Made by a program: the position numbers and the translations under genes
Shown: in pieces, positions 26,144 through 52,444 of the stretch
Numbering within the stretch: the stretch's first letter is position 1
Layout: every line of letters starts with the position of its first letter
NCBI GenBank assembly: GCA_964647255.1
Contig: CAZYGI010000013.1
Span: 1,846 to 65,845 of the forward strand
DNA: 64,000 nucleotides
DNA from: an uncultured Anaerolineales bacterium
GTDB lineage: Bacteria; Chloroflexota; Anaerolineae; CG2-30-64-16
Direction of reading: 5' to 3'
Notes under the pieces: generated by a model
Databases searched by the model: none
Told to the model about the DNA's origin: nothing
What the model saw: only the letters and a program-made list of their open reading frames with translations

Positions 26144-27796
26144 ATGCCCGTTGCCCCCCCTGTGACCTATCCTGGAGTGTATATTCAGGAGGTGGAAAGC
26201 CCGGTGCACACCGTGACACCGGTGGCAACATCCACCACGGCGTTTGTCGGCCGGGCGAAGCGCGGCCCCGATGGCAGCCCCGACGGTGGTGGGCCGGAGC
26301 TCATCCACAGCTTCGGCGACTTCCAACGTATCTTCGGCGGTTTGTGGGCCGATAGCCCCCTGGGCTACGCGGTCAACGATTTCTTCCTCAACGGCGGCAG
26401 CGATGCAGTGATCGTCAGGCTGCACAATGGCGCCAAGGCCGCAACCATCACCATGCCGGCGGGTGGCGGCACCGTTGCGCTTCAGGCCAAGTCCAAGGGC
26501 GCATGGGGGAACTCCCTACGCGTGCGTGTGGAGTACGTTTTGCCTGCAAACACATCCTCAACCGATCCTACCTACAAGATGGTTGCGGACAATGTAGCCA
26601 CGCCGCTCGGCGTCACCGATCCGACGGAGCTATTCAACTTGTATGTGTATGATGGTGACAGCGGCGCGACAGAGAAACTGACCAACATCACCGCGAACAC
26701 GGGCGTGCGCACCGTCAACAAGGTGCTGGCCCATGAATCGAGCCTGGTGGCGTGCGCCGATCCCGATATGTCGTGGGCCATCAAACCAGACCCCCACGCG
26801 AAGCTGGTCAAGCCGACCAAGCCCTGGTGGGATGATGACAACGCGGGCGGCTTCACTCCGGCGGATGCCAACAGCGGAAGTGATGGCGGCGCGCTGCAAC
26901 CGACCGATTACACCGGCGATCCGGGAAAGAAAACCGGCATCTATGCACTGGAAAATGCGGATATCTTCAACCTGCTGGTAATCCCCCCCGACACCGCCAA
27001 CGGCGATACGCCTACCGACCCTGTATTGACCACGGCGCTGGCCTACTGCGAGCGCAAACGCGCCATCCTCCTGGTGGATCCGCCCTCTGGATGGGCCCGC
27101 AAGGATAACGCCAAGAACGGCGTGCCGATCAGCGGCCTTGGCCCCAGCGCAAACGCCGCCATCTACTTCCCGCGCATCCGGAAGGCCAACCCGCTGCACC
27201 AAAACCAGATCGAGACCTTCGTGCCCAGCGGCACGGTGGCCGGCATCATTGCGCGCACCGATCTGCAGCGGGGTGTCTGGAAGGCGCCGGCGGGGCTCGA
27301 AGCAACCATGAGCGGTGTGGCGTCGCTGACCGTGCCGCTCACCGACGCCGAGAACGGCGAGCTGAACCCGCTTGGCATCAACTGCCTGCGCACTCTGCCC
27401 GCGGCCGGGAACGTCGTTTGGGGCGCACGCACCACGGTCGGAGACGACCGGCTGTCGTCGCAGTGGAAATATCTGCCGGTCCGGCGCACGGCCCTCTGGA
27501 TCGAGGAAACGCTCTATCGCAGCTCCCAGTGGGCGGTCTTCGAGCCCAACGACGAACCGCTCTGGTCGGCCTTGCGGCTGAATATCGGCGCATTCATGCA
27601 GGGCTTGTTCCGCCAGGGCGCATTCCAGGGCCAATCGCCCAAGGACGCCTATTTCGTCCAGTGCGACAGCACCACCACGACCCAGGCCGACATTGACCGG
27701 GGCATCGTCAATATCGTGGTCGGCTTTGCGCCGCTGAAACCCGCCGAGTTCGTCGTGATCTACATCCAGCAGATCGCCGGCAACATCGCGACATGA
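26144..27796 (+). CDS. contractile tail sheath protein (Afp2-4/Cis2-like)
   Basis: Start at MPVAPPVTYPGVYIQEVES (ATG 26144, AAGGAG 7 nt upstream). The PGVYI.E N-terminal hallmark and the C-terminal GINCLRTLP..GNVVWGARTT...KPAEFVVI block are typical of phage/eCIS sheath proteins. Confidence 0.9.
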   Translation: MPVAPPVTYPGVYIQEVESPVHTVTPVATSTTAFVGRAKRGPDGSPDGGGPELIHSFGDFQRIFGGLWADSPLGYAVNDFFLNGGSDAVIVRLHNGAKAATITMPAGGGTVALQAKSKGAWGNSLRVRVEYVLPANTSSTDPTYKMVADNVATPLGVTDPTELFNLYVYDGDSGATEKLTNITANTGVRTVNKVLAHESSLVACADPDMSWAIKPDPHAKLVKPTKPWWDDDNAGGFTPADANSGSDGGALQPTDYTGDPGKKTGIYALENADIFNLLVIPPDTANGDTPTDPVLTTALAYCERKRAILLVDPPSGWARKDNAKNGVPISGLGPSANAAIYFPRIRKANPLHQNQIETFVPSGTVAGIIARTDLQRGVWKAPAGLEATMSGVASLTVPLTDAENGELNPLGINCLRTLPAAGNVVWGARTTVGDDRLSSQWKYLPVRRTALWIEETLYRSSQWAVFEPNDEPLWSALRLNIGAFMQGLFRQGAFQGQSPKDAYFVQCDSTTTTQADIDRGIVNIVVGFAPLKPAEFVVIYIQQIAGNIAT

Positions 27797-27834
27797 GCAG
27801 CAGCCCTGGGCACGGGCGCTAAGGAGAGAACACC

Positions 27835-28248
27835 ATGGCAGAAAAAGCAAGTTGGACAATGCAGTTGAGGATCGATGGGGGCCCCGCGATCAGCGCGGCC
27901 AGCCAGGTGACCGTGGACGCCTACGACAAGGCGAGCCTTGATCTGACCAAGAACGCGGCCACCAAGACCGTCCAGGTGCAGCCCGCTCCCGGCCTGGCAA
28001 GATACCTGGTGGTCACCGCCAGTGCATACAGCGACCCAAAAGATAACACGGCAAAGGTGAGCTTCAAATTCGCGAAGGCTGATGGCACCCCCATCGGCAA
28101 TGATATCCAGTTGGTGGATGCGCTGGTGGTGACCGGCCAGGCGGCCCTGGCCAGCATCGCGCCGAATTGGACCGGCCTGACGTTCACGAGCACGTTCGCC
28201 GATCCCATCACCGTGAATGTGCTGGTCTGCCGGGCTGCTGCTCCGTGA
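27835..28248 (+). CDS. hypothetical beta-rich 137-aa protein between sheath and tube genes
   Basis: Good RBS (AAGGAGAG). No domain recognised. Confidence 0.55.
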   Translation: MAEKASWTMQLRIDGGPAISAASQVTVDAYDKASLDLTKNAATKTVQVQPAPGLARYLVVTASAYSDPKDNTAKVSFKFAKADGTPIGNDIQLVDALVVTGQAALASIAPNWTGLTFTSTFADPITVNVLVCRAAAP

Positions 28249-28341: not shown

Positions 28342-28872
28342 ATGCCTGCTCCAGAGTTCACGGTCAACACGTACCGATACGATCCGTCCAAGAAGTTCAA
28401 ATTTCGCGTCAATTGGTATAACAATTATTTGGCCGGCATCAGCAAGGTGGGCGGCCTGACGCGCACCACGCAGGTCGTCAGCCACCGCGAGGGCGGCGAC
28501 CCCAGCAGCAGCCGCAAATCGCCGGGCCAGACCGACTATGGGCCGATCACCCTGGAACGCGGGGTCACGCACGATAAAGACTTCGAGCAGTGGGCCAATA
28601 AGGTCTGGGCCTACGGCAACGCGGCCGGCCAGGAGGTCTCGCTCAAGGATTTCCGCAAGGACATCATCATCGAGCTGTACAACGAGGCCGGGCAGAAGGT
28701 GGTCGCGTACAACGTCCATCGCTGCTGGGTGTCGGAGTTCACGGCGCTGCCCGAGCTGGATGCCGGCGGCAACGCGGTCGCGATCCAATCCATCACGCTG
28801 CAACATGAAGGGTGGGAACGTGACACCTCGGTGGTTGAGCCGACGGAACCGAACTATTTGCTGCCATCGTAA
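28342..28872 (+). CDS. tail tube protein (T4 gp19-like / Afp1-Cis1-like)
   Basis: KFKFRVNW...ISKVGGLTRTTQVVSHREGGDPSSSRKSPGQTDYGPITLERGVTHD..FEQWA matches the conserved phage-tail-region tube family pattern. RBS AAAGGAGG. Confidence 0.85.
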   Translation: MPAPEFTVNTYRYDPSKKFKFRVNWYNNYLAGISKVGGLTRTTQVVSHREGGDPSSSRKSPGQTDYGPITLERGVTHDKDFEQWANKVWAYGNAAGQEVSLKDFRKDIIIELYNEAGQKVVAYNVHRCWVSEFTALPELDAGGNAVAIQSITLQHEGWERDTSVVEPTEPNYLLPS

Positions 28873-28893
28873 GGCTGCCTGCCACATTGGGGG

Positions 28894-29631
28894 ATGCGTG
28901 TGATGCGTACACTCTCTGCCCTGGACCTGGTGCGCGCGTGGGAGGCAGGCCGCGATCGCCATCCGGTGGATCGCGCGCTGCTGCTGCTGGCGCTCGCGTA
29001 CCCCGAGCTCACGCGAGACCAGCTGGCCGCGCTCACCATCGGACAGCGCAACGGCCGGCTCCTGGCGCTGCGCCAGCAGCTTCTGGGCGCGCACTTGAAC
29101 GCGTACGCCGAATGTCCCCAATGCCGCGAAGCGCTGGAATTCTCCATCAACGCGCCATCGCTCCGGTCGCCCGAACCCGCAGAACTGATGTTCACCCTGG
29201 CCATTGATGGATTGGAGGTGCGCCTCCGCCTGCCCGACAGCCTGGATCTGGCGGCCATCAGCGATGTGCCGGGGCCGGATGAGGCCCGACGCCAGCTGTT
29301 CGAGCGCTGTGTGCTGGAGGCCCGGCAAGGCGAGACGCCGGTCGCGGCCGCGGCGTTGTCCGATGAGATCGTGACGGCTTTGGCTGACGCCATGGGCGAA
29401 CGCGATCCGCAGGCGAGCCCGCGCTTCCGATTGAACTGCCCGGCCTGCGGGCACGGCTGGGCCGCCCTGTTCGACATCGTCTCGTACTTCTGGACCGAGA
29501 TCAACGCCTACGCGCAGCGCCTGCTGGGTGAGGTGCATCACCTGGCACGGGCCTATGGCTGGCGCGAAGCCGATATCCTGGCGATGAGCTCAGCTCGGCG
29601 CCAATTCTATCTGAACCTGGCGGGCGAATGA
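28894..29631 (+). CDS. conserved-position hypothetical protein with a CxxC...CxxC zinc-ribbon-like pair
   Basis: ECPQCREAL and NCPACGHGW motifs. Its stop overlaps the next start (ATGA at 29628). Function unknown; I think similar proteins occur after the tube gene in other eCIS loci, but I cannot verify that. Confidence 0.6.
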   Translation: MRVMRTLSALDLVRAWEAGRDRHPVDRALLLLALAYPELTRDQLAALTIGQRNGRLLALRQQLLGAHLNAYAECPQCREALEFSINAPSLRSPEPAELMFTLAIDGLEVRLRLPDSLDLAAISDVPGPDEARRQLFERCVLEARQGETPVAAAALSDEIVTALADAMGERDPQASPRFRLNCPACGHGWAALFDIVSYFWTEINAYAQRLLGEVHHLARAYGWREADILAMSSARRQFYLNLAGE

Positions 29632-31817
29632 ACGATTTTCTGGCCGCGATCGTGACGGCAGTGCAGACGCCCCCGGCTTCACCGATGATCCAGCCGTCCT
29701 TGGCGCCGCACTTTGCGCTCATGCCGGACATCGCCGGCGACAGCATGGCCGTCGGGGGCGATGTCGGTGACCCGCTGTTTGAGGCGGTCGGGATGGCCAA
29801 CGGCGCCTTACCGGGTGCGCCGGATGTTATCCCACCGCTGCTGCCGCTCGGCGTCTATGATGATGACACGGCGCACTTGCCGTGGTCGGAGGCTGAGGCG
29901 CCGGCGTTTGCGGCCGAACCCGGGGACCCGGCCAGTCCGGAGGCTCCGAGCCGATCCACAATCAGCCAACCGGTCTTCGCTGATGCCAGCGCGGATGAAA
30001 CATCTCGCGCCGCCACGATAGATGAATCCGCTCGTAGGAGCGACTTCAGTCGTTCGGCGCAGACCACGGCGGACGAATCCGCTCGTAGTAACGACTTCAG
30101 TCGTTCGGCGCAGACCACGGCGCCTGAAGTCGCTCCTACAAACCGATCCATTTTCAGAGCAGCCAGCCAGGCCTCGCGCGACGCCACAGCAAATGAGAAT
30201 GGACGTCGCAGCTTGCCGCGTTCCGGCGCGAGCCCCGACGTCCCGAACCTCGAAGCTGCTTCACATTCTGGATCAGAACGCTCGCCGCTGTCCGGTTCCG
30301 TTGCAATCACGGACGCTGTTTCAGCGCCGGAGCCGGAGTCCGCGGCGCGCACTGGCGCAACACGGGTGACACCGGGCATTCCACCTGATGCAGACGCGAC
30401 GCGCATCACCGCACAGCCGGTCGTTCCGGCCCCCGCTCACTCGTCATTCGGCACATCTCCCTTGAAGGCGTCCGATGTGGTCGAGCCCGCAGCCGCTAAT
30501 CGGCCGGGCGCAGACGCACCGAAAGCGACCCTCAGGGCGGCAGATGCGCATGGGAGCGCCGGCGCCACGCTGGCTGAAGAGCTCAAACCAGGGCGTACAG
30601 AGCACGAAGTGCAGGCCGGTTCTAAGAGTCATCCTGGCGCCGTTGCGGCTTGGCGGGCGACCGGTGCACCCACACCCGAGAGCCTGTGGGACACCGATCC
30701 CAAGAGAGTTACTTTCGGGATGGAGGCCCTTGTCGGGCGCGCCGCCACGACGGATGAATCCGCTCGTAGTAACGACTTCAGTCGTTCGGCGCAGACCACG
30801 ACGGACAAATCCGCTCGTAGTAACGACTTCAGTCGTTCGGCGCAGACCACGGCGCCTACAGATGCAACGGGTGCGGTGATGCCCGACGAGGTGAAACCAA
30901 GAGCCCTACCAGACTCCCAAACGAACGCGCCCCCCAGGCTTGCGGCTGGCGCACCGCTCGAGGCCACGCGGGCGACGCGCAGCCGAATCCGGCCGGCAGG
31001 ATCCCGCCGCGCCGGGGTGACCCCAGTCCAGGCGCAGGCAGGCGAGGCCATACGCCACGCCGCTCCCGGGCACACCGCTGAGGCTGCGAGCCCCACCTCG
31101 GAGGCCGATGCGAAGCCAACGACATCGTCACTACCCTTCGTAAGTATGGCGCGACCCAGGAGTGAGATACCGCGAGCGACTTTAGCGGAGACAGGCGCGG
31201 CGGCCGCCGAGAACGTAGCGCAAGCTGGCAGCTTGCGCCACTCGCCCGTTCTCAGAGCAGCCGCCCATGCCGTGAGCGGCGCCACCGACGATGAAGCCAG
31301 ACGGGGCAGCTCCCTGCGTGCCGGGGCCAGACCTGCCAACCAGATGTTCAGAGCCGCCAATGAAAGCGGGATGCGAGTGGATGCAGGGCCCATGAACGAC
31401 TCGGACACTGCCCGCCTTGATCCGCGCCGTCCGCGTCCCATGCTCAAAGCGGTGCGTGTCCCTGAGCAGACCGCACCGGTGACAGCCGAGGCGAGGGACA
31501 GCACCCCGGAGCACTTCAACGCGCTGGTCCGCCAGACGGAGCGCGCCGCCACGAGCGGGAGTGTGCGGACCCCATCCATCATCCGGCCTGTGCCGGAAGC
31601 ACCTGCAGCGGTCACAGGCCGGACCGCGGCCTCGGGTCGGTCACAGGTCCAGGAGCTGGCCCCGGCCGAGTCATTGCCCACCATTCGGGTGACCATCGGC
31701 CGCATCGAGGTGCGGGCCCGCAGTACCGAAGCAGCCCCTGTGCCGGCTCGTCCCATGCCGCGCCCCCCGATGTCACTCGACGCGTACCTCGGCCGCGCCG
31801 CAAGAGGCAACCGATGA
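29628..31817 (+). CDS. putative tail-length tape-measure-like protein (Afp14/Cis14-like), low complexity with internal tandem repeats
   Basis: 729 aa, Ala/Pro/Arg/Ser-rich, with four 17-aa DESARSNDFSRSAQTTA units. The C-terminal LPTIRVTIGRIEVRA motif is what I recall from eCIS tape-measure candidates. Translationally coupled on both sides. Confidence 0.5.
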   Translation: MNDFLAAIVTAVQTPPASPMIQPSLAPHFALMPDIAGDSMAVGGDVGDPLFEAVGMANGALPGAPDVIPPLLPLGVYDDDTAHLPWSEAEAPAFAAEPGDPASPEAPSRSTISQPVFADASADETSRAATIDESARRSDFSRSAQTTADESARSNDFSRSAQTTAPEVAPTNRSIFRAASQASRDATANENGRRSLPRSGASPDVPNLEAASHSGSERSPLSGSVAITDAVSAPEPESAARTGATRVTPGIPPDADATRITAQPVVPAPAHSSFGTSPLKASDVVEPAAANRPGADAPKATLRAADAHGSAGATLAEELKPGRTEHEVQAGSKSHPGAVAAWRATGAPTPESLWDTDPKRVTFGMEALVGRAATTDESARSNDFSRSAQTTTDKSARSNDFSRSAQTTAPTDATGAVMPDEVKPRALPDSQTNAPPRLAAGAPLEATRATRSRIRPAGSRRAGVTPVQAQAGEAIRHAAPGHTAEAASPTSEADAKPTTSSLPFVSMARPRSEIPRATLAETGAAAAENVAQAGSLRHSPVLRAAAHAVSGATDDEARRGSSLRAGARPANQMFRAANESGMRVDAGPMNDSDTARLDPRRPRPMLKAVRVPEQTAPVTAEARDSTPEHFNALVRQTERAATSGSVRTPSIIRPVPEAPAAVTGRTAASGRSQVQELAPAESLPTIRVTIGRIEVRARSTEAAPVPARPMPRPPMSLDAYLGRAARGNR
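30021..30122 (+). repeat. 2 x 51-bp in-frame tandem repeat (pair 1) inside the tape-measure-like gene
   Basis: Copies at 30021-30071 and 30072-30122, near-identical. Each contains the palindrome CGACTTCAGTCG. Confidence 0.9.
30753..30854 (+). repeat. 2 x 51-bp in-frame tandem repeat (pair 2), same unit as 30021..30122
   Basis: Copies at 30753-30803 and 30804-30854. The unit GA(T/C)(G/A)AATCCGCTCGTAGTAACGACTTCAGTCGTTCGGCGCAGACCACG is shared with pair 1, 732 bp away. Confidence 0.9.
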
Positions 31818-33004
31818 GCAACGCGCGCGCGATCGCTGTCGTCACCGCGGCCCTGGCCAGCATCTTGACATCGGTGGCCAGGACGGTCCTGTCCGGCACC
31901 GTCATCCATGTGGGGCGGCCAGAGAAACTCCCGGAGCCGGACCGTGATCAGCCCGGCATCAACGTCTTTCTCTTCCAGGTGAGCATCAACGATACGCTGC
32001 GTAACGTGGACCTGCCGATGCGTATGGCCGACGGCCGTCTGGTGCAGCGTCCTACCCTGGGCCTGGATCTGATCTATCTCCTGACCTTTCATGGCCCCGG
32101 CCTTGTGCCTGAGCTGCTGTTGGGACGCACGCTTAGCGCGCTTCACGCCCGTCCGGCGCTGTCACCGGAGCTGGTGGCCAACGCCATCCAACAAAAGGGC
32201 AACGTACCCGGCGATCGCTATCTGCAGGAGACGGACATTGATCAAGCCAAGGGGATCCGTTTCGAGTCGTACCCACTTTCTCTGGAGGAGCTTTCCAAGC
32301 TGTGGTCCGTCTTCTTCCAGATGCCTTACGCCCTCTCGCTGGCCTACCGGGCGACCGCCGTGATGGTCGAGGCTGAGGATTTGCCGGTGCCTGCGCTGCC
32401 GGTGCGTGACATCAGCGCGCGGTCCGGCGCCGGCGGCATCCCGCAGATAGAGCAGATCCTGCCGCCGCTGGTCGAGCCCGACACCCCCATCGTGCTGCGT
32501 GGCCGTAACTTGAGCGCGGCTGACACCTGGATCCAGTTCAGCGGGTCCGCGACGCCCGTGGCGCCACAGGTAACCGCGGATGGCTTGCAGGTCACGCTGC
32601 CCAATGACCTGGCTGCGGGCGCGACGTCCGCGTCGCTGGTCGACGCGACCGGGCGGCCGCTGTCCAACGCCGCGCCGTTTATGCTCCACCCGCGCGTCAT
32701 CAGCGCTGACGTCGCCAACAGGCTGCTCACGGTGAACCTGGTGCCGCAGGTGCAAGCGGGGCAGCGCGTGCGGCTGCTGCTGAATATGGTCGGGAGCCGT
32801 GAGGCGTACACAATCGATGTACCGAACGTGACGCAGTCTACCGGCCAAATTGCGATCCCCGTCCCTGCGCTGCAATCCGGCGGCAGCTACCTGGTGCGCG
32901 TGCAGGTGAATGGCGCGGAGAGCCAGCTCACCACCGTCCCGCCGCCTGATAAGCCGCACAGCCCGGCTCAGCCGTACAACTTCCCGATGGTAACCCTCCC
33001 ATGA
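31814..33004 (+). CDS. DUF4255 (Pvc16/Afp16-like) tail terminator/cap protein with C-terminal IPT-like domain
   Basis: The N-terminus MSNARAIAVVTAALASILTSV...INVFLFQVSIN is typical of the Pvc16 N-terminal domain. The C-terminal PIVLRGRNL...LQVTLP is Ig/IPT-like. ATGA overlaps at both ends. Confidence 0.75.
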   Translation: MSNARAIAVVTAALASILTSVARTVLSGTVIHVGRPEKLPEPDRDQPGINVFLFQVSINDTLRNVDLPMRMADGRLVQRPTLGLDLIYLLTFHGPGLVPELLLGRTLSALHARPALSPELVANAIQQKGNVPGDRYLQETDIDQAKGIRFESYPLSLEELSKLWSVFFQMPYALSLAYRATAVMVEAEDLPVPALPVRDISARSGAGGIPQIEQILPPLVEPDTPIVLRGRNLSAADTWIQFSGSATPVAPQVTADGLQVTLPNDLAAGATSASLVDATGRPLSNAAPFMLHPRVISADVANRLLTVNLVPQVQAGQRVRLLLNMVGSREAYTIDVPNVTQSTGQIAIPVPALQSGGSYLVRVQVNGAESQLTTVPPPDKPHSPAQPYNFPMVTLP

Positions 33005-36004: not shown

Positions 36005-36010
36005 GCAATC

Positions 36011-36604: not shown

Positions 36605-36640
36605 TTTGCGCAGATCCGTTATCGGCATGAGGGAGTGAGA

Positions 36641-37955: not shown

Positions 37956-37956
37956 T

Positions 37957-47328: not shown

Positions 47329-49694
47329 GTGACAGCATCGAAGAACGCTTCTATGCCCTGTTGCCGCAGTTGTATCGCCATCGTGACATGCTGCAAGGCC
47401 AGCCCCTGCGCGCGCTCCTGGCCGTGCTTGAAGGAGAGTATCAGGCGCTGAGCCAGGACATGCAGGCCACCTACGACAATTGGTTCGTGGACACCTGCGA
47501 TGAGTGGGTGTTGCCCTACCTGGCCGACCTGCTCGGCATCCGCGGCCTGGACCACGTCCAGCACCTGTTTCCCACCCAGCGCCGCCTCGTGGCCAACGCC
47601 CTGGCCTACCGGCGCCGCAAAGGGACCGCAGCCGTCTTGGAGCACGTCTTGCGCGATGTGACCGGCTGGGACGTGCGGGTGGTCGAATTCTTCCAGCTCC
47701 TATCGGTCACCCAACATCTGTCCGCGCTCCGGCCCAACACCGGCCGCAGCGTGGATCTCCGGGAGTCCCTCGCCCTGTCGCAAGCAGGCGGCGCCTTCGA
47801 GCGCTTTGCGCACACCCTGGATGTAAGAGGCAACGAGGCCGAGCTTGTGCTATCCGGTTCTGACCGAGGGGCCCAGCCATCGAAGTATCACCCGGCTAAC
47901 CTGGGCATCTTCGTGTGGCGGCTGCGCGCCTACCCCCTGGATGACACCTTCGCCCGTCCGGTCGCCGGTTCCGCGCACGCGGGGTGCTTCACCTTCGACG
48001 CGGCCGGTCGTTCGGTGCGCCTGTTCAACCGTCCTCAGCCCGTGGATAGCATCCTGGATCGCGCCCAGGCGCCCAATCTGACCATCCCCCTGACCCGCGC
48101 GTTGCTGGACTCTGACCTGCGGGCCGCAGCAGATGAGGCCGGCAACGGCGCCTATTACGGTCCCGACCGCAGCTTCATGATCAGCTATCGAACCGGACCA
48201 GGCGATCCTTTCCAGCCAGTTCAGCCTGAAGGCCTGCTGGTGGCTGACCTCTCTAGCTGGCGCCTTCCACCAGGCCAGCCATCGGACGCGTCCGGCGGCC
48301 CGAAGATCGTCGCCGTGGATCCGGAACTGGGACGGATGAGGTTTCTCTTGCCGCAGGGGCCCAAGGAGATGGGCGACGTCATCGTCAGCTACACCTATGG
48401 CTTCAACGCCGATTTGGGAGGAGGCGCCTACAGCCGCTACGCAGATCTGCAGGCGCTGGAAAACCTCCCCGAACACGCGCTGCGGATCAGTGTCGCCGAG
48501 GGCGGCCTGAGCGAGCTCCCAGCAATCGCGGACGCAAGTGACCGCGACGCTTTAGATTGGCCGCGTCCACTTCGTACGCTCCAGGCGGCCCTGGACGCGT
48601 GGGAACGCTACTGCGAAGACTGCGCGGTCAAAGACCTGCGGCCGATCGGCGCCATCGTCATCCTGGACAACGGGCGCTACGGCGGCAAGTCGCAGCGCGG
48701 TGACAGCCAAACGCTCGATGCGAGCGGCGATCTGGTGATCCGGCTGCCACAGGGCGCGCAATTGTCCATCATCGCCGCCGATGGCGTGCGACCCTCCATC
48801 CGGCCCTTCAATCGGCTGAGGATCACCACGACGCTCGAGCCAATCCCGCGGAAGGGAGTTGAGCCACGGCTGCTGAGCAAAGCCAGTGAGCCATCCGCGC
48901 CCGATCGCCGCCTGCAGTTAAACGGGATCCTGCTCGAGGGCCGGCCCATCGAGATCAACGACGAGCCATTTGATGGCTTCATAGACCTGGAGCTGAAACA
49001 CTGCACGACTCTGGCATCGGGCATCAGGGTCAAGTTACGCTCGCCACGCTCCCAGGCGTTGCGCGTTCGGATCGAAAATAGCATCGTGGGTGCGGTGCGG
49101 CTTCCCAGTGACACCTTCGAGTTGGCGATCGCCGACAGCATCGTAGATTCGGGCGACGAAGAAGATGCCATCGCGGGGAGTAAACCTGGAGAAATGGGGC
49201 CGGCCACAACACTAGAGCGCGTTACGGTCTTGGGCGCTACACGAGTTCTTGAACTGAAGCTGGCCTCGGATGTGATCTTCACCCAGCCCCTGCATGTCGA
49301 GCACTGCCAAGGCGGGCTGATCCGCCGGTGTTATGTACCGCCGGAAAGCCAGGCGACGCCGCGCCGCGAGCACTGCCAACCCGACCTCGCCCTCGAGGCG
49401 CTCGGTCGCATCACAACACCGCCCGACACGGCCGCTGCCGAGGCGCTTGCCGCTGAAAAGGATCGGCTGCAACGGCGAATACGGCCCATCTTCACATCCA
49501 CCGATCCTGGCCATCCCGGCTACGCGCAGTTGCACCCTTCAACCGCCGTCGAGATACGGAGCGGCGGCCAGGCCGGTGCAGAAATGGGCGCATTTCATGA
49601 CCTGTACGAACATCAACGCGTGGCAAACCTGCGCCGAGCGTTGGACGAGTACTTGCCGCTGGGCAAGCAGGTCAGCATCCATTTCGTGACCTAG
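47325..49694 (+). CDS. P2 gpI-like baseplate/tail protein (Afp12/Cis12-like)
   Basis: The N-terminal ERFYALLPQLYRHRD...LRALLAVLEGEYQAL...WFVDTCDEWVLPYLADLLGI is the phage-tail-protein-I-type domain signature. Confidence 0.75.
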   Translation: MSDSIEERFYALLPQLYRHRDMLQGQPLRALLAVLEGEYQALSQDMQATYDNWFVDTCDEWVLPYLADLLGIRGLDHVQHLFPTQRRLVANALAYRRRKGTAAVLEHVLRDVTGWDVRVVEFFQLLSVTQHLSALRPNTGRSVDLRESLALSQAGGAFERFAHTLDVRGNEAELVLSGSDRGAQPSKYHPANLGIFVWRLRAYPLDDTFARPVAGSAHAGCFTFDAAGRSVRLFNRPQPVDSILDRAQAPNLTIPLTRALLDSDLRAAADEAGNGAYYGPDRSFMISYRTGPGDPFQPVQPEGLLVADLSSWRLPPGQPSDASGGPKIVAVDPELGRMRFLLPQGPKEMGDVIVSYTYGFNADLGGGAYSRYADLQALENLPEHALRISVAEGGLSELPAIADASDRDALDWPRPLRTLQAALDAWERYCEDCAVKDLRPIGAIVILDNGRYGGKSQRGDSQTLDASGDLVIRLPQGAQLSIIAADGVRPSIRPFNRLRITTTLEPIPRKGVEPRLLSKASEPSAPDRRLQLNGILLEGRPIEINDEPFDGFIDLELKHCTTLASGIRVKLRSPRSQALRVRIENSIVGAVRLPSDTFELAIADSIVDSGDEEDAIAGSKPGEMGPATTLERVTVLGATRVLELKLASDVIFTQPLHVEHCQGGLIRRCYVPPESQATPRREHCQPDLALEALGRITTPPDTAAAEALAAEKDRLQRRIRPIFTSTDPGHPGYAQLHPSTAVEIRSGGQAGAEMGAFHDLYEHQRVANLRRALDEYLPLGKQVSIHFVT

Positions 49695-49750
49695 TTGCAG
49701 GGATGCGCCGCTGCGCGGTCAGGCATTTTCCACAGACAATGAAGGTAACA

Positions 49751-51655
49751 ATGCGAGGCGATTTCTCACGTTCGACATTTGATCCCAAGCAACACTACAC
49801 CACCGTGCGCATGCAACAGGGCCGGATGCAGCTTGATGCCGACTGGAACGAGCAGATGGACATCCTGTTGCACCTGCTGCGCGTCCAGGCGCAAGACCTG
49901 CTAGGCCCTTACGGCGCACCTGCGCGTTCGGCCGGTTTCGCCATCTCGCTGCCGGAGCGCGGCGGTCTTCAGGACGATCTGCGCATCGCGGCCGGCCGTT
50001 ACTACGTTGACGGCATCCTGGTGGAAAACGATAGCGACACGTTGTTCCGTGCGCAACCGTATTGGCCCAATGCTGACCTGCGGGAGGCCATGCATGACGC
50101 CGACCGCTGCGTGATCTATCTGGATGTGTGGGAGCGACATCTGAGCGGCGCCGAGGCGCCGTCGCTCCTCGAGCCTGCCCTGGGCGGCCTCGATACCACC
50201 ACCCGCACCCAGACCGTGTGGCAGGTGAAACGATGGCCGGCGACCTCCTCGGACAAAGTTCCCCAACCAGCTACGAACAAGGGCCTGTTGAGCGCATGGA
50301 GCCAATGGCGTGATGCGCAGAGCCGACCAGGCGGTTCGGTCGGTCGTGGCGCGCTGCGCCCCAGGGTGACACCGGCCGGTTACGGCCTGACCAATCAGCT
50401 TTATCGGGTCGAAATCCACACCGGAGGCGATGAAGCGACGTTCAAGTGGTCGCGGAACAACGGCTCGGTCACGTTTGTTGTGACGAGCCTACAATTCAAA
50501 GACGCGCTGCTGACGGTCACGTTGGAAGGTGTATCGGCGGCGACGGACCTACAGGTGGGCGACTGGTTGGAACTGGCTGATCCGTCGTACGAGCTAAGCT
50601 CGCGGCCGGCGCCGCTGTTCAAGATCCACGACTCACCCAACTGGGATTCCGCGTCCGCGACGGTCAACCTGGTTCCCGCGACCGCTCCGAGCGAACAAGA
50701 CCGCCAGGAGATCGAGGCCATTGGACAGCACCTATCCCAAGGCAGGCAGATCCAACTGGATGGCATGCGCACAGTCCTGCGGCGTTGGGACCACAATGAG
50801 CATGCCCAGGGGAACAGCGCCGGCCTGGATGGCGCCATCGCGGTGCGACCCAACCAGTGGCTGCCCCTTGAAAACGGCATCGAGGTCCGCTTTGAGGGCG
50901 CCAGTGACCTGCGCACAGGCGACTACTGGCTTATTCCTGCCCGCAGCGAGACCGAGGGCTATTCGCTCCTCTGGCCAGTTGAACCCGCACAGGTCAATGC
51001 AACCCGCAGTGAGGCGTCAGCCGTCGATCCGACTGCCCCTGAAGCAGCATCACAAAGTCTCTCGTATGCGAAGCAACCTGCGCAGCGGATCGAACACCAT
51101 CTTGCCCCTTTGGCGGTGCTCTTCCGCGACGGAACAGCTCCGGCCGTGTCCGACCTGCGAACGCTCTTCCAGCCCGTTGTCGGCTTCGAATCTGACGAAA
51201 CCGCTATCGAGCAACGCCTGCAGGGTGCGATTGACGCGCTGAGGGGCGAAATCACCCAAATGTCGTCTGCGGTCTACCCGGTGGCCGATCCCAGCGCCGG
51301 CCTCGAATCAGGCCAGGTGGTTGCCCTGGATCCGGTCAGCGGCGGCATCGAGCTGGCCAAACGCAGCAATGCATCCCTTGTCGTCGGCGTGACGCTCGGT
51401 CCCTTTGGCGACTGGGAGGAGCGGAAACAGGCAACCCCAAGCTACCGGGTAGCGCAAACCGGCCGCCACCAATGCCTGGTGCGCGGTCGGATTGAGCCCG
51501 GCGACCTGCTGGTACCCTCGGATGTGCCCGGCTATGCCATGTCGGCAGGACTGATTATCCAGCCAGGCGCGGTGATCGGCAAGGCGCTACAGGCCCACCA
51601 CCCAACCGATGTCAAAGAGGTTGCAACGATCGCCATCATGGTGACCTTACAGTAA
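49751..51655 (+). CDS. DUF6519-like protein (CIS-associated, function unknown)
   Basis: Start set at MRGDFSRSTFDPKQHYTTVRMQQGRMQLDADWNEQ (ATG 49751). I recall this N-terminal motif from DUF6519-type proteins encoded at the distal end of eCIS loci (memory only). Confidence 0.6.
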   Translation: MRGDFSRSTFDPKQHYTTVRMQQGRMQLDADWNEQMDILLHLLRVQAQDLLGPYGAPARSAGFAISLPERGGLQDDLRIAAGRYYVDGILVENDSDTLFRAQPYWPNADLREAMHDADRCVIYLDVWERHLSGAEAPSLLEPALGGLDTTTRTQTVWQVKRWPATSSDKVPQPATNKGLLSAWSQWRDAQSRPGGSVGRGALRPRVTPAGYGLTNQLYRVEIHTGGDEATFKWSRNNGSVTFVVTSLQFKDALLTVTLEGVSAATDLQVGDWLELADPSYELSSRPAPLFKIHDSPNWDSASATVNLVPATAPSEQDRQEIEAIGQHLSQGRQIQLDGMRTVLRRWDHNEHAQGNSAGLDGAIAVRPNQWLPLENGIEVRFEGASDLRTGDYWLIPARSETEGYSLLWPVEPAQVNATRSEASAVDPTAPEAASQSLSYAKQPAQRIEHHLAPLAVLFRDGTAPAVSDLRTLFQPVVGFESDETAIEQRLQGAIDALRGEITQMSSAVYPVADPSAGLESGQVVALDPVSGGIELAKRSNASLVVGVTLGPFGDWEERKQATPSYRVAQTGRHQCLVRGRIEPGDLLVPSDVPGYAMSAGLIIQPGAVIGKALQAHHPTDVKEVATIAIMVTLQ

Positions 51656-51667
51656 GGAGGATGGATC

Positions 51668-52444
51668 ATGATTAACTTCAAGAATGGGGGCTTTCTGCTG
51701 GGATTGCTGGCGGGTGCGGCGCTGACGGCGCTGTTAGGCATCTTCGTGCTGACGCTGATCCAAACCGCCAGGCCTGCGCCGGTCGTGACGCCAACCGACA
51801 CGCCCACAACCGAGCCAACGCACACGCCTACACCAGTCACGCTAACCGACACGCCCACAACCGAGCCAACGTACACGCCCACACCAGTCATGCTAACCGA
51901 CACGCCCACAACCGAGCCAACGTACACGCCCACCCAGACGCCTACACCGGCTACGCCTACGGTTACCCCGGCAGTGCCATCTGTGACCCCAAACACTGTG
52001 GGTGGATCCGGGGGGAGTCCCTATTCGTTAGCCTGTCCGCCAGGATCCGCGGCCACTGGCATCCAGGGGCGGGCTGGTAGTAACGTCAACCAGGTGCGGG
52101 TGCGGTGTCAGGGCATCGTCGATGCGACGCTCTCCGGGGCGAGCTCAACGACAGCCAGCGCGGGCGGCGGGGGAGGCTCTCCCTATGACCTGGGCTGCCC
52201 CGCTGGCTACGTTGTAGTAGGCATCCGCGGGAGGGTCGGGAACGGTGGCGCAGGGGTCGTGGATATGCTGGGCGTTGACTGCGCCGCACCGGCGGGAGGC
52301 CCCACGTTTACCACCGCCTCGGTTGGGACGATCTTCGGCGGTTCAATCGAGTATAGCCTGAGGTGCCCAGCCGGCACGATCGTCAGGGGTCTGCAAGGAA
52401 GAGCAGGGGACCTCGTCGACGCCATCGGGCTGCAATGCCAATAG
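51668..52444 (+). CDS. membrane-anchored protein with a Thr/Pro tandem-repeat linker and three Cys-containing lectin-like (jacalin/beta-prism-like) repeats
   Basis: AAGGAGG 7 nt upstream. N-terminal TM GGFLLGLLAGAALTALLGIFVLTLI. The 17-aa TDTPTTEPT(H/Y)TPTPV(T/M)L unit occurs about 2.7 times. Three repeats of GG(S/G)GGSPY.L.CP.G....GI.GR.G......V.C. Confidence 0.7.
   Translation: MINFKNGGFLLGLLAGAALTALLGIFVLTLIQTARPAPVVTPTDTPTTEPTHTPTPVTLTDTPTTEPTYTPTPVMLTDTPTTEPTYTPTQTPTPATPTVTPAVPSVTPNTVGGSGGSPYSLACPPGSAATGIQGRAGSNVNQVRVRCQGIVDATLSGASSTTASAGGGGGSPYDLGCPAGYVVVGIRGRVGNGGAGVVDMLGVDCAAPAGGPTFTTASVGTIFGGSIEYSLRCPAGTIVRGLQGRAGDLVDAIGLQCQ
51793..51932 (+). repeat. 51-bp in-frame tandem repeat (about 2.7 copies) encoding the Thr/Pro linker
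   Basis: Copies start at 51793, 51844 and 51895, with only a few substitutions. Confidence 0.9.

What the first reader, a model, noticed from the sequence alone, without database searches (positions are those of the whole stretch)
26144..52444. Complete phage-tail-like contractile injection system (eCIS-type) operon of ~21 co-directional genes
Seen in sequence: an uninterrupted plus-strand gene array. Recognisable products are sheath, tube, tape-measure-like protein, DUF4255 cap, AAA+ ATPase, tube-initiator N-domain, LysM-like protein, gpD hub, gpV spike, PAAR-like tip, gp25, two baseplate-J-type wedge proteins and a gpI-like protein.

Five junctions are ATGA start/stop overlaps (29628, 31814, 33001, 42613, 47325). 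Several other junctions are 1-4 nt apart.

Established knowledge: this gene set, and especially DUF4255 plus a dedicated AAA+ ATPase without any capsid, portal or terminase genes, defines Afp/PVC/MAC/CIS-type particles rather than a prophage or a T6SS.

Inference: the hub/spike is split into gpD and gpV, Afp7 is split into a tube domain and LysM, there is no tail fibre, and the wedge is membrane-anchored (see the other findings). Together these put it outside the well-studied Afp/PVC architecture. It may represent an uncharacterised, possibly cell-internal, CIS lineage.
Basis: partly seen in the sequence, partly recalled or inferred. Interest (0 to 1): 0.85.

Follow-up and report, generated by a model that had tools for sequence, protein, structure and literature searches.

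The report
Membrane-anchored contractile injection system operon
This is a complete 21-gene operon for a phage-tail-like molecular syringe in an uncultured Chloroflexota bacterium; it belongs to an already catalogued branch of these machines, but one baseplate protein carries a conserved membrane-spanning hairpin, which suggests the syringe is built into the cell's own membrane.

Summary
26144-52444 is an unbroken array of 21 plus-strand genes with five ATGA overlaps. HMM hits cover sheath, tube, gp51-like protein, Pvc16_N cap, WHD-AAA+ ATPase, CIS_tube initiator, gpV spike, gp25, two Baseplate_J proteins, Tail_P2_I and DUF6519. No capsid, portal or terminase gene lies in the 64 kb window.

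It is a contractile injection system (CIS), not a prophage or a canonical T6SS. Its "odd" features are two afp11 copies and afp8 split into gp27-like and gp5-like ORFs. These are the published hallmarks of eCIS lineage II subtypes IIa/IIc (Chen 2019), so they are not new.

"No tail fibre" is doubtful, because DUF6519 is the proposed fibre anchor eBAP5. "Tape measure" is only a positional guess.

The unusual part is the 1571-aa second Baseplate_J protein. It carries a ~630-aa insertion: a β-propeller interrupted by two transmembrane helices. About 28 homologues keep this hairpin, including one in Kouleothrix, and the charge pattern fits N-in/C-in. Cyanobacterial relatives lack it. A small bitopic membrane protein is also conserved at the operon end.

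Best reading: a CIS tethered to the cytoplasmic membrane by its own wedge. I found no description of this in the literature. It is a new variant of a known kind.

The parts
26016..26050 (+). Promoter-like site (TTGATA-17 nt-TATAGT) in an AT-rich stretch about 95 nt upstream of the sheath gene
   Evidence: Consensus scan, 10 of 12 matches, although the count is not above shuffles. The block is conserved upstream of the sheath gene of relative L006 (TTGACA-17-TATAGT, 83% over 35 nt), while the surrounding DNA is unrelated.
26144..27796 (+). Sheath (Cis2), 550 aa
   Evidence: Phage_sheath_1 and Phage_sheath_1C. It aligns full length to the S. coelicolor CIS-Sc sheath 8bky/9gtp (4.6e-69). The haloarchaeal sheath 9ezm scores 4.3e-69 and tCIS All3325 only 1e-32.
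27835..28248 (+). 137-aa protein of unknown role between sheath and tube
   Evidence: No Pfam, NCBIfam, PHROG or PDB hit. Present in close relative L006 at 84% identity. Absent from L005.
28342..28872 (+). Inner tube (Cis1), 176 aa
   Evidence: Phage_T4_gp19, 2.4e-46.
28894..29631 (+). T4 gp51-like baseplate-hub assembly protein, 245 aa
   Evidence: PF12322 T4_baseplate, 3e-8. phrog_150 baseplate hub, 8e-7. Syntenic in L005 and L006.
29628..31817 (+). 729-aa low-complexity Ala/Pro/Ser/Arg-rich protein in the position of a tape measure; function unproven
   Evidence: No family or PDB hit. Only the first ~30 aa and a C-terminal motif (P-T-I-R-V-T-I-G-R-I-E-V-R ... S-L-D-x-Y-L) are conserved among three orthologues of 578-729 aa. 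It holds two pairs of 51-nt (17-aa) repeats. The L007 orthologue is 904 aa.
31814..33004 (+). Cap / tail terminator (Cis16), 396 aa, with an Ig-like C-terminal extension
   Evidence: Pvc16_N 3e-33 and TIG 5e-5.
33001..34989 (+). AAA+ ATPase (Cis15), 662 aa
   Evidence: WHD 2.7e-18 and AAA 5.5e-25.
35036..36004 (+). 322-aa orphan protein, candidate cargo; possibly an α/β-hydrolase with a disordered N-terminal loading region
   Evidence: Lies in the variable cassette where relatives carry eCIS_core (DUF4157) proteins. Only 3 proteins in 5.8 billion match it, and no further relative appears among 1.84 billion representatives. GHSWG Ser206, Asp263 and His295 are invariant. phrog_789 esterase/lipase, 5e-4. 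The AF2 model is poor (pLDDT 45.8) and the fold search is not significant.
36011..36604 (+). 197-aa unknown protein paired with the 322-aa gene (second cargo or immunity; undecided)
   Evidence: No family hit. Co-occurs with the 322-aa gene in L006 at 53% identity, against 73% for its neighbour.
36635..36982 (+). 115-aa small conserved protein of the lineage, function unknown
   Evidence: Orthologues of 93-118 aa lie directly after the ATPase in L001, L005 and L007, and before the tube initiator in L006. No family hit.
36993..37649 (+). Tube initiator (N-terminal part of Afp7/Cis7), 218 aa
   Evidence: PF19266 CIS_tube, 5.9e-11.
37659..37955 (+). LysM-like small baseplate protein (C-terminal part of Afp7/Cis7), 98 aa
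   Evidence: phrog_7145 baseplate wedge subunit, 9e-7. The profile's best PDB match is tCIS Cis7 All3321 residues 163-219, E = 0.034. This evidence is weak.
37957..39096 (+). gp27/gpD-like hub (N-terminal half of VgrG/Afp8), 379 aa
   Evidence: The profile of 4 orthologues hits VgrG 9rce_F residues 60-182 at 1.2e-8, and the 581-aa chain 7aef_q (which I take to be the AlgoCIS spike/Cis8; its depositor label reads otherwise) at 2.4e-5. The L007 orthologue has a weak Phage_GPD hit.
39099..39794 (+). gp5/gpV-like spike, 231 aa
   Evidence: Phage_base_V, 2.4e-20.
39796..40125 (+). PAAR-like spike tip, 109 aa
   Evidence: PAAR_motif 7e-4 and DUF4280 6e-3, both below cut-off. A 107-aa orthologue occupies the same place in every locus, at 62-95% identity.
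40129..40479 (+). gp25-like wedge/sheath initiator (Cis9), 116 aa
   Evidence: GPW_gp25, 3e-14.
40484..42616 (+). First Baseplate_J wedge protein (Cis11a), 710 aa, no hydrophobic segment
   Evidence: Baseplate_J 1.7e-4 (21.4 bits against a cut-off of 21.1) and Gp6-like_1st 4.5e-4. Paralogous to Cis11b, 27% identity over 274 aa, E = 6e-15. No TM segment.
42613..47328 (+). Second Baseplate_J wedge protein (Cis11b), 1571 aa, with a ~630-aa insertion (aa ~275-905) made of a β-propeller interrupted by a transmembrane hairpin
   Evidence: Baseplate_J 8e-9 and BNR/Sortilin. It hits CIS-Sc Cis11 9gtp_1K at 9.5e-10. The insertion is delimited against the 867-aa homologue P0065. AF2 model: pLDDT 71.6, pTM 0.67, strands-helix-helix-strands. 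Foldseek finds β-propellers at about 1e-6.
44278..44346 (+). Predicted transmembrane helix 1 of Cis11b (aa 556-578)
   Evidence: Kyte-Doolittle 19-residue mean of 2.17. Helix in the AF2 model. Conserved position directly after the AGTDxGVF(P/R)I blade motif in about 28 homologues.
44746..44838 (+). Predicted transmembrane helix 2 of Cis11b (aa 712-742), followed by R-F-L-N-N-R-P-G-R-R
   Evidence: Kyte-Doolittle mean of 2.46. Helix in the AF2 model. K+R enrichment on the cytoplasmic flanks across 25 homologues.
47325..49694 (+). gp7/gpI/TssG-like wedge protein (Cis12 position), 789 aa
   Evidence: Tail_P2_I 2.3e-10, above cut-off; TssG 2e-3, below cut-off.
49703..51655 (+). DUF6519 protein (eBAP5 type), candidate fibre/crown attached to the Tail_P2_I protein, 650 aa
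   Evidence: DUF6519, 1.2e-65. The role is the one proposed in PMC12923769. No TM segment.
51668..52444 (+). Bitopic membrane protein, 258 aa: a 6-aa cytoplasmic stub, a TM helix, a Thr/Pro-rich linker and three Cys-containing repeats (jacalin-like lectin)
   Evidence: TM segment aa 7-35, Kyte-Doolittle 2.51. The L001 orthologue hits Jacalin at 2.9e-4. The M-x-N-[FLI]-[SK]+TM start is conserved in all 5 loci while the ectodomain varies or is absent.
25675..25757 (.). Left copy of an 83-nt direct repeat that brackets the operon; a displaced fragment of the 3' end of the PLD-like gene
   Evidence: the repeat finder family D3, 98% identity, spacing 27,390 nt. tblastn of the PLD-like protein shows a pseudogene fragment with an in-frame stop.
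53065..53147 (.). Right copy of the 83-nt direct repeat; the last 27 codons and stop of the intact PLD-like gene 53065-54990 (minus strand)
   Evidence: PLDc_2 hit.

Best explanation
The region is one operon, about 26.5 kb from the promoter near 26021 to about 52500. It encodes a complete contractile injection system of eCIS lineage II, with the gene content of subtypes IIa/IIc.

Shown by homology:
- tube, sheath, cap and AAA+ ATPase
- tube initiator plus LysM-like protein
- a spike split into a gp27-like hub, a gp5-like spike and a PAAR-like tip
- gp25, two paralogous gp6/Baseplate_J proteins and a gp7/Tail_P2_I protein
- a DUF6519 (eBAP5) protein

Inferred from known structures: the wedge is a heterotrimer of Cis11a, Cis11b and Cis12. 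It mirrors the 2×Cis11 + 1×Cis12 wedge of Streptomyces CIS-Sc and R2 pyocin, but with two different genes filling the two gp6 positions.

Shown by sequence and conservation: Cis11b carries a seven-bladed β-propeller inserted into the gp6 fold. Two transmembrane helices loop out between blades 4 and 5. Both ends of the hairpin face the cytoplasm.

Inferred mechanism:
1. Six wedges put twelve TM helices into the cytoplasmic membrane, together with the conserved single-pass protein encoded by the last gene.
2. The particle therefore assembles in the cytoplasm with its baseplate fixed on the inner face of the membrane.
3. The ATPase loads cargo into the tube through a disordered N-terminal region. 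The cargo here is the orphan 322-aa protein, possibly a hydrolase; relatives carry DUF4157 proteins instead.
4. Sheath contraction drives tube and spike through the producer's own membrane.
5. The shot either goes outward into a neighbouring cell (T6SS-like) or acts as a stress-triggered self-killing device, as in Streptomyces. The sequence cannot tell which.
For: CIS identity:
- Pfam hits for 14 of the 21 genes; a profile or PHROG hit for two more.
- No head genes and no T6SS membrane-complex families in 64 kb.

Lineage:
- Two afp11 copies, a split afp8 and a PAAR-like gene match the IIa/IIc description (PMC6899500).
- The sheath is about equally close to the clade IIa haloarchaeal sheath (9ezm) and the IId CIS-Sc sheath (8bky), and much further from tCIS, PVC and Afp.

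Wedge:
- Cis11b hits CIS-Sc Cis11.
- The CIS-Sc wedge is 2×Cis11 + Cis12 (PMC12237407).

Membrane anchor:
- Two hydrophobic segments with Kyte-Doolittle means of 2.17 and 2.46.
- AF2 places helices there between propeller strands; Foldseek confirms a propeller.
- 23 of 28 closest homologues (31-64% identity) show exactly two such segments. One shows four, one shows three, and three show only one at the 1.7 threshold (weaker second segments appear at lower thresholds).
- The loop between the helices varies from about 8 to about 245 aa, so the conserved element is the hairpin itself.
- Mean K+R is 2.28 and 3.16 on the outer flanks of the hairpin, against 1.44 and 0.60 on the loop side.
- Cyanobacterial homologues with larger propellers have no such segments.

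Lineage conservation:
- Gene order is identical in L001 (Anaerolineales MAG), L002 (Kouleothrix), L003/L005, L006 and L007.
- A TM-anchored last gene is conserved in all five loci that reach the operon end.

Cargo:
- The cassette between the ATPase and the tube initiator is variable. It holds eCIS_core proteins in four relatives.
- The loading model comes from the AlgoCIS preprint.
Against: - No experiment exists; the organism is an uncultured MAG.
- TM prediction rests on hydropathy and AF2 helices only, because no dedicated predictor was available.
- The position of the Cis11b insertion relative to the spike and membrane is inferred, not modelled. The full wedge could not be folded.
- A DUF6519 'fibre' and DUF4157 cargo in relatives are features normally associated with released extracellular particles.
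- The only imaged Chloroflexota CISs (Roseiflexus, IId) float free in the cytoplasm (PMC12998442).
- The subtype assignment rests on gene content, not on an Afp11 tree against dbeCIS.
- The cargo assignment for the 322-aa protein is weak.
Confidence: 0.6

Rival explanations
1. It is an ordinary extracellular CIS. Particles assemble free in the cytoplasm, are released by lysis and bind target cells through the DUF6519 fibre. The hydrophobic hairpin of Cis11b is either buried in the baseplate or used to engage the target membrane.
For: DUF6519 is the proposed fibre anchor eBAP5 and lies directly after Tail_P2_I. Relatives carry DUF4157/eCIS_core cargo, which is typical of eCIS. The operon has a cap and an AAA+ ATPase, as Afp and PVC do.
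Against: - Two segments of 23-31 residues with hydropathy of 2.2-3.0 are far more hydrophobic than buried soluble helices.
- They obey the positive-inside rule and come in even numbers.
- Twelve TM helices per particle would hold it in the producer's membrane.
- A second conserved membrane protein sits in the operon.
- No lysis genes lie in or beside the operon.
Confidence: 0.2
2. It is a Streptomyces-type cytoplasmic CIS (cCIS, subtype IId). It floats free and is recruited to the membrane only under stress to kill its own cell, with the last gene acting as the CisA equivalent.
For: - The sheath aligns full length with CIS-Sc and Cis11b hits CIS-Sc Cis11.
- The last gene is a bitopic membrane protein with a sugar-binding-type ectodomain, encoded right after the wedge/fibre genes. 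This is the position and general build of Sco4242/CisA (PMC10020575; PMC12237407).
- Roseiflexus IId particles are unanchored.
Against: - The gene content fails two IId features: single afp11 and contiguous afp8.
- The last-gene product has only 5-8 cytoplasmic residues, so it lacks the cytoplasmic N-terminal region through which CisA is predicted to contact Cis11.
- The anchor is built into the wedge itself, which argues against a free-floating resting state.
- A self-killing outcome is not excluded; only the free-floating part is disfavoured.
Confidence: 0.15
3. It is the tail module of a myovirus prophage or a tailocin remnant.
For: All structural genes have phage-tail homologues. An 83-nt direct repeat brackets the operon like an integrated element.
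Against: - No capsid, portal, terminase, integrase or lysis genes lie in the bracketed segment or elsewhere in the 64-kb window.
- Pvc16_N, WHD-AAA+, CIS_tube and DUF6519 are CIS markers.
- The same head-less operon recurs in five other genomes.
Confidence: 0.02

Closest known systems
eCIS lineage II, subtypes IIa/IIc (Chen et al. 2019, dbeCIS; PMC6899500)
   Same: - Two afp11 (Baseplate_J) genes.
- afp8 split into gp27-like and gp5-like ORFs.
- PAAR-like afp10 present.
- No recognisable afp14, afp6, afp13 or lineage-I-type afp12.
- Several lineage-specific genes of unknown function.
   Different: No transmembrane Afp11 paralogue is described for these subtypes in the papers searched. Whether the locus is IIa or IIc could not be decided without the Afp11 tree. 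The absence of Afp12/13-type genes favours IIc.
Streptomyces coelicolor CIS-Sc (subtype IId cytoplasmic CIS; PDB 8bky, 9gtp; PMC10066040, PMC12237407)
   Same: - Closest solved sheath by full-length alignment (4.6e-69).
- Cis11 is homologous to Cis11b.
- The wedge has two gp6-type subunits plus one gp7-type subunit.
- No conventional tail fibre.
- A bitopic membrane protein is encoded after the wedge genes.
- Firing is thought to need membrane contact.
   Different: - CIS-Sc has one cis11 gene and a contiguous VgrG.
- Its particle has no membrane-binding component and relies on a separate protein, CisA, with a long cytoplasmic N-terminus.
- Here the anchor is part of the wedge, and the last-gene product has almost no cytoplasmic part.
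Haloarchaeal T6SS of Halogeometricum borinquense (clade IIa; PDB 9ezm; PMC11566945)
   Same: - Two cis11 genes.
- Top-scoring solved sheath (4.3e-69, in two stretches).
- Baseplate seated on the cytoplasmic membrane.
- No TssJLM complex.
   Different: Anchoring there is attributed to a separate six-TM protein (Hbor_38620) encoded upstream, not to a Cis11 insertion. It is an archaeal host with an S-layer.
Thylakoid-anchored CIS of Anabaena (tCIS; PDB 7b5h; PMC8894136)
   Same: - Baseplate extensions tether the particle to an internal face of a membrane.
- Cis11 carries extra domains.
- Cyanobacterial 'baseplate assembly proteins' with BNR/Sortilin propellers are the nearest TM-less homologues of Cis11b.
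   Different: - tCIS uses an amphipathic extension of Cis12 and a TM helix in the fibre-like Cis13, plus a Cis19 crown.
- Its sheath is much more distant (1e-32).
- The host here has no thylakoids.
Roseiflexus/Chloroflexota-Deinococcota CIS clade (subtype IId; PMC12998442)
   Same: Same phylum; intracellular phage-tail-like particles; no cisA homologue.
   Different: Those particles are unanchored in the cytoplasm and belong to IId. No Roseiflexus protein appears among the 120 best Cis11b homologues.

Membership tests
Contractile injection systems of the Afp/PVC/eCIS superfamily | Contractile sheath and gp19-type inner tube | tested here: met
   Phage_sheath_1/1C and Phage_T4_gp19 above cut-off. 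The sheath hits solved CIS sheaths.
Contractile injection systems of the Afp/PVC/eCIS superfamily | Afp16-type cap (Pvc16_N/DUF4255) and a dedicated AAA+ ATPase (Afp15) | tested here: met
   Pvc16_N 3e-33; WHD plus AAA 5.5e-25.
Contractile injection systems of the Afp/PVC/eCIS superfamily | Baseplate core: gp25, Baseplate_J (Afp11), VgrG-type spike, tube initiator | tested here: met
   GPW_gp25, Baseplate_J twice, Phage_base_V and CIS_tube. gp27-like hub by profile.
Contractile injection systems of the Afp/PVC/eCIS superfamily | No capsid, portal, terminase or replication genes alongside | tested here: met
   Pfam and PHROG scans of the flanking ORFs of the 64-kb window. The same holds in L002, L003, L005 and L007.
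eCIS subtypes IIa/IIc (Chen 2019) | Two copies of afp11 | tested here: met
   40484-42616 and 42613-47328 both hit Baseplate_J. They are paralogues, E = 6e-15.
eCIS subtypes IIa/IIc (Chen 2019) | afp8 split into gp27 and gp5 ORFs | tested here: met
   The 379-aa protein matches the N-terminal part of VgrG. The 231-aa protein matches Phage_base_V.
eCIS subtypes IIa/IIc (Chen 2019) | afp10 (PAAR-like) present | tested here: inconclusive
   The PAAR_motif and DUF4280 hits are below cut-off. The gene is conserved in place in all loci.
eCIS subtypes IIa/IIc (Chen 2019) | Placement in the IIa or IIc clade of the Afp11 maximum-likelihood tree | not testable with these tools
eCIS subtype IId (Streptomyces CIS-Sc, Roseiflexus CIS) | Single afp11 gene | tested here: not met
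   Two Baseplate_J genes. Criterion from PMC6899500.
eCIS subtype IId (Streptomyces CIS-Sc, Roseiflexus CIS) | Contiguous afp8 (VgrG) ORF | tested here: not met
   Hub and spike are separate ORFs 2 nt apart.
Canonical T6SS (subtypes i-iii) | TssJ/L/M membrane complex, TssA, TssK, ClpV and a two-gene TssB/TssC sheath | tested here: not met
   None of these families was hit in any ORF of the operon or flanks. The sheath is a single 550-aa phage-type protein. Only a sub-threshold TssG hit overlaps Tail_P2_I.
Thylakoid-anchored CIS (tCIS) | Cis13 fibre with a TM helix, Cis12 amphipathic extension, Cis19 crown | tested here: inconclusive
   Phmmer or profile searches of eight operon products (sheath, 137-aa, 729-aa, tube initiator, LysM-like, hub, Cis11a, Cis11b) plus Tail_P2_I against the PDB found 7b5h chains only for the sheath (1e-32) and the LysM region (0.034). 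The DUF6519 protein and the last gene were not queried against the PDB, and no fold-level comparison was made. The Tail_P2_I and DUF6519 proteins have no hydrophobic segment.
Myovirus prophage / R-type tailocin | Head, packaging or lysis genes, or tailocin regulators and a lysis cassette, next to the tail genes | tested here: not met

The most novel reading that the evidence does not exclude
This Chloroflexota lineage would be an independent evolutionary route to a membrane-anchored, T6SS-like secretion machine. The baseplate wedge itself is an integral membrane protein: a TM hairpin looped out of a β-propeller inserted into a gp6/Afp11 paralogue, assisted by a conserved single-pass partner. 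No trans-envelope complex and no separate adaptor would be needed. That would add a further mode of CIS-membrane attachment to T6SS (TssJLM), T6SS-iv feet, tCIS, the haloarchaeal six-TM adaptor and CisA.
Probability: 0.45. Interest if true: 0.75.

Novelty: new variant of a known kind. Interest (0 to 1): 0.55.

Why it matters
How a phage-tail-like particle meets a membrane decides what it does: free toxin dart, contact-dependent weapon, or suicide device. Each newly solved attachment mode has defined a new class (T6SS, tCIS, cCIS, archaeal T6SS).

A wedge protein that spans the membrane by itself would be the simplest anchor yet. It would show that membrane tethering can arise from a single domain insertion. 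It would also give a clear sequence marker, the propeller plus TM hairpin in the second Afp11 copy, for predicting mode of action from genomes.

The lineage lives in filamentous Chloroflexota of sludge and soil-type metagenomes, where cell-cell killing or programmed cell death is unexplored. The operon also seems to move as a 26.5-kb unit with swappable cargo and swappable ectodomains.

Tried and rejected
- **Source look-ups.** Exact-sequence look-ups of the tube protein and of P0001 found no contig. The one genome-contig scan returned a single relative, an Anaerolineales MAG.
- **729-aa protein as tape measure.** There is no family hit, and a profile against the PDB gave only spurious low-complexity matches. 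It is kept as a positional guess only.
- **322-aa protein.** Three homologues in 5.8 billion proteins, and no further family member among 1.84 billion representatives (one marginal local match, E = 1.7e-4, to a 2110-aa protein). AF2 gave pLDDT 45.8 and Foldseek nothing at E ≤ 1e-3. The weak hits mix α/β-hydrolases with TIM barrels. The hydrolase idea stays a hypothesis that rests on GHSWG/D/H and one PHROG hit.
- **137-aa protein.** No hit in any library, including the PDB at E ≤ 10.
- **Cis11a and the Tail_P2_I protein against the PDB.** Nothing useful.
- **L004.** A 74%-identical sheath sits on an ENA contig with sheath and tube genes scattered among metabolic genes. I treated it as chimeric or decayed and did not use it.
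- **Subtype IId.** I first assumed it from sheath similarity to CIS-Sc, then rejected it after reading the gene-content criteria.
- **Upstream two-component system and downstream PLD-like gene as parts of the system.** Rejected, because neither is syntenic in the relatives.
- **Terminator.** The consensus scan found only one hairpin, at 52859-52877, beyond the conserved unit. No firm terminator is assigned.

Full report
**1. Observation**

The window is 64 kb at about 64% G+C. From 26144 to 52444 there are 21 consecutive plus-strand ORFs.
- The five ATGA overlaps are at the stated positions: 29628, 31814, 33001, 42613 and 47325.
- Eleven other junctions are 1-12 nt apart, and the widest gap is 93 nt.
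- The sheath start at ATG 26144 matches a 550-aa database protein exactly.
- Long minus-strand ORFs inside the array are shadows typical of high-G+C DNA. The plus-strand frames carry the family hits and the orthologues.

**2. Gene products**

Pfam hits above the curated cut-offs:

| Coordinates | Product |
|---|---|
| 26144-27796 | sheath |
| 28342-28872 | T4 gp19 tube |
| 28894-29631 | T4_baseplate (gp51-like) |
| 31814-33004 | Pvc16_N cap with a TIG domain |
| 33001-34989 | WHD + AAA ATPase |
| 36993-37649 | CIS_tube |
| 39099-39794 | Phage_base_V |
| 40129-40479 | gp25 |
| 40484-42616 and 42613-47328 | Baseplate_J |
| 47325-49694 | Tail_P2_I |
| 49703-51655 | DUF6519 |

Weaker assignments:
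- The 109-aa PAAR-like protein scores below cut-off.
- The 379-aa protein has no Pfam hit. A profile of four orthologues matches the N-terminal gp27-like part of VgrG at 1.2e-8, and the 581-aa chain 7aef_q (which I take to be the AlgoCIS spike; its depositor label reads otherwise) at 2.4e-5. The L007 orthologue has a weak Phage_GPD hit.
- The 98-aa protein hits a PHROG baseplate family at 9e-7. Its best solved match is the LysM part of tCIS Cis7, at E = 0.034.

No homology at all was found for four products: the 137-aa, 729-aa, 197-aa and 115-aa proteins.

**3. Not a prophage and not a canonical T6SS**

- The flanks encode GH94, a subtilase, three multicopper-oxidase-like proteins, a 2280-aa surface protein, a NarL-type response regulator with a PAS histidine kinase, a PLD-like protein, fumarase, CsoR, tRNA-Val and ThrRS.
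- Nothing resembles capsid, portal, terminase, integrase or lysis genes.
- No TssJLM, TssA, TssK or ClpV family was hit.

**4. Relatives and source**

The 1571-aa protein has one species-level relative in GTDB genomes, an uncultured Anaerolineales MAG at 84% identity (L001). Further homologues lie in Kouleothrix sp. (L002) and in metagenome contigs (L003/L005, L006, L007).

All of them share one gene order:
1. sheath, tube, gp51-like protein
2. a 578-904-aa low-complexity protein
3. cap, ATPase, a small 93-118-aa protein
4. a variable cassette
5. CIS_tube, a ~100-aa protein, a ~380-aa protein
6. gpV, a 107-aa protein, gp25
7. a ~700-aa Baseplate_J, then a long Baseplate_J
8. Tail_P2_I, DUF6519, and a membrane-anchored last gene

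The sheath family is very large, with 8000 hits below 1e-30. Named relatives at 55-60% identity occur in Caldilineaceae, Anaerolineae, Longimicrobium and Rudaea.

**5. Classification**

The sheath is about equally close to two solved sheaths: the haloarchaeal one (9ezm, clade IIa; 4.3e-69) and the Streptomyces CIS-Sc one (8bky/9gtp, IId; 4.6e-69, full length). It is far from tCIS, AlgoCIS, PVC and Afp.

Chen et al. 2019 state the following:
- Subtypes IIa and IIc have two afp11 copies and an afp8 split into gp27 and gp5 ORFs.
- Subtype IId has one afp11 and a contiguous afp8.
- afp10 is present in IIa, IIc and IId.
- afp12/afp13 are absent from most IIc and IId loci.
- afp14 is absent from lineage II.

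The window locus therefore fits IIa/IIc and fails IId. The lack of Afp12/13-type genes favours IIc.

The DUF6519 gene after Tail_P2_I is the eBAP5 type of candidate fibre/baseplate anchor defined in 2026. That contradicts 'no tail fibre', although the fibre role of eBAP5 is itself only a prediction.

**6. The distinctive element: Cis11b**

Compared with an 867-aa homologue, the 1571-aa protein has a ~630-aa insertion between residues ~275 and ~905.
- The insertion contains BNR/Sortilin motifs.
- It has two very hydrophobic segments, aa 556-578 and aa 712-742, with Kyte-Doolittle means of 2.17 and 2.46.
- An AF2 model of aa 280-910, built with 21 homologues, reached pLDDT 71.6 and pTM 0.67.
  - It shows four blades of β-strands, a helix at 558-575, two loop helices and a disordered Ala/Thr/Pro stretch.
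  - A long helix then ends at 743, followed by three more blades.
- Foldseek matches β-propellers such as Ycf48, GH74 and Reg_prop at about 1e-6.

Conservation among the 28 closest homologues (31-64% identity):
- 23 have two such segments at the same place. One has four, one has three, and three have one clear segment (weaker ones appear at lower thresholds).
- TM1 always follows the AGTDxGVF(P/R)I blade motif.
- TM2 is followed by a basic motif (RFLNNRPGRR).
- The loop between the helices ranges from about 8 to about 245 residues.
- Mean K+R in the 15 flanking residues is 2.28 before TM1 and 3.16 after the last TM. It is 1.44 and 0.60 on the loop side, which fits the positive-inside rule for an N-in/C-in hairpin.
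- An even number of spans is what a baseplate protein needs if both halves of its gp6 fold stay in the cytoplasm.
- Cyanobacterial homologues (1600-2700 aa, more propellers) have no such segments.
- Cis11a, Tail_P2_I and DUF6519 have none either.

**7. A second conserved membrane component**

In all five loci that reach the operon end, the gene after DUF6519 begins M-x-N-[FLI]-[SK], followed by a strong TM helix. Its ectodomain varies:
- jacalin-like repeats behind a Thr/Pro linker in the window and L001
- a CBM-like domain in L002
- a PMP/pectin-lyase-like domain in L003
- nothing at all in L007, where the ORF is 40 aa

Its position and build recall Sco4242/CisA of Streptomyces. However, it has only 5-8 cytoplasmic residues.

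**8. Cargo cassette**

The genes between the ATPase and the tube initiator differ between relatives.
- L001, L002, L003/L005 and L007 carry one or two eCIS_core (DUF4157) proteins.
- The window and L006 carry a 322-aa and a 197-aa pair instead.
- The 322-aa protein is an orphan. It has an invariant GHSWG, Asp and His and a weak esterase/lipase PHROG hit. Its first ~145 residues have low confidence in the model.
- Modelling and fold search of the 322-aa protein were inconclusive.
- In AlgoCIS the AAA+ ATPase loads cargo through a disordered N-terminal sequence, and DUF4157 is optional. I infer the same route here.

**9. Mechanism**

The steps are given in the best explanation above.
- Shown: the parts list, the paralogous wedge genes, the conserved hairpin and its charge asymmetry, and the conserved bitopic partner.
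- Inferred: a Cis11a-Cis11b-Cis12 wedge by analogy with the 2×Cis11 + Cis12 wedge of CIS-Sc, seating on the cytoplasmic membrane, and firing through it.
- Open: whether the shot goes outward (T6SS-like) or is self-killing.

Known attachment modes use TssJLM, T6SS-iv feet, the tCIS Cis12 amphipathic extension with the Cis13 TM helix, a separate six-TM protein in haloarchaea, or CisA. Searches of the held literature found no report of TM helices inside an Afp11/Cis11 paralogue. The imaged Chloroflexota CISs (Roseiflexus, IId) are unanchored.

**10. Mobility**

An 83-nt direct repeat, 81 of 83 identical, lies at 25675-25757 and 53065-53147 and brackets the operon.
- The right copy is the end of the intact PLD-like gene.
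- The left copy is a displaced pseudogene fragment.
- Homology with L006 begins at the promoter block 26016-26050, and homology with L001 stops at 52506.
- Relatives carry the operon in other contexts.

This looks like insertion of a ~27-kb island into the 3' end of the PLD-like gene. No integrase is present.

**11. Verdict**

The CIS interpretation is right. The claims of 'no fibre', 'tape measure' and 'outside known architectures' need correcting. The integral-membrane wedge makes the locus a new variant of a known kind, and it is worth experimental follow-up.

Noticed in passing
window 25675-25757 and 53065-53147 (also 25403-25463 vs 53402-53462): An 83-nt direct repeat at 98% identity, 27,390 nt apart, brackets the whole operon. 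The right copy is the 3' end of the intact PLD-like gene (minus strand). The left copy is a displaced pseudogene fragment with an in-frame stop. A second, weaker and non-colinear fragment lies further left. This looks like an att-type duplication from island insertion, but there is no integrase inside.
   Followed up: partly
window 25960-26060: An AT-rich stretch in a ~64% G+C genome holds a -35/-10-like pair, TTGATA-17-TATAGT. The same block (TTGACA-17-TATAGT) is conserved upstream of the sheath gene in L006, although the surrounding DNA is unrelated.
   Followed up: partly
window 30006-30176 and 30687-30857: Two separated pairs of 51-nt tandem repeats encode a 17-aa unit (..DESARSNDFSRSAQTTA..) inside the 729-aa low-complexity gene. 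The two pairs are 95% identical to each other across 630 nt.
   Followed up: no
window 51785-51949: 51-nt tandem repeats encode the Thr/Pro-rich linker (TDTPTTEPTYTPTP) of the last gene. The copy number differs from the L001 orthologue.
   Followed up: no
window 59283-59594: tRNA-Val (GAC) is followed immediately by a full-length T-box leader (106.8 bits) in front of the threonyl-tRNA synthetase ORF. The first ATG of that ORF (59475) lies inside the leader, so the real start is probably further downstream.
   Followed up: no
window 22172-25367: A NarL/LuxR-type response regulator and a multi-PAS HisKA_3 histidine kinase lie on the same strand just upstream of the operon. They are not syntenic in relatives, so they are probably not a dedicated regulator.
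   Followed up: partly
L004 (ENA contig_127725) 10001-14996: A sheath at 74% identity and a gp19 tube gene are separated by methionine-synthase-like, NUDIX and other metabolic fragments, with no other CIS genes within 10 kb. This is either a chimeric assembly or a decayed cluster.
   Followed up: no
L003 23344-23879 (minus strand): A second Tail_P2_I gene and an 807-aa ORF lie on the opposite strand about 4 kb beyond the end of the CIS operon on the same JGI contig. This may be a second tail-like cluster next door.
   Followed up: no
window 7065-13114 and 13979-20821 (minus strand): Three consecutive multicopper-oxidase-like genes, one of 1125 aa with Ig-like repeats, are followed by a CBM96 protein and a 2280-aa SdrD/TIG-repeat surface protein. 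This is a large cell-surface gene block unrelated to the CIS.
   Followed up: no
L007 19559-19681; L002 18436-19371; L003 18135-19667; window 51668-52444: The gene after DUF6519 keeps only its first ~35 residues (M-x-N-[FLI]-[SK] plus a TM helix) across loci. The extracellular part is swapped between jacalin-like, CBM-like and PMP-like domains, or is missing altogether. The conserved function therefore seems to lie in the membrane helix.
   Followed up: partly
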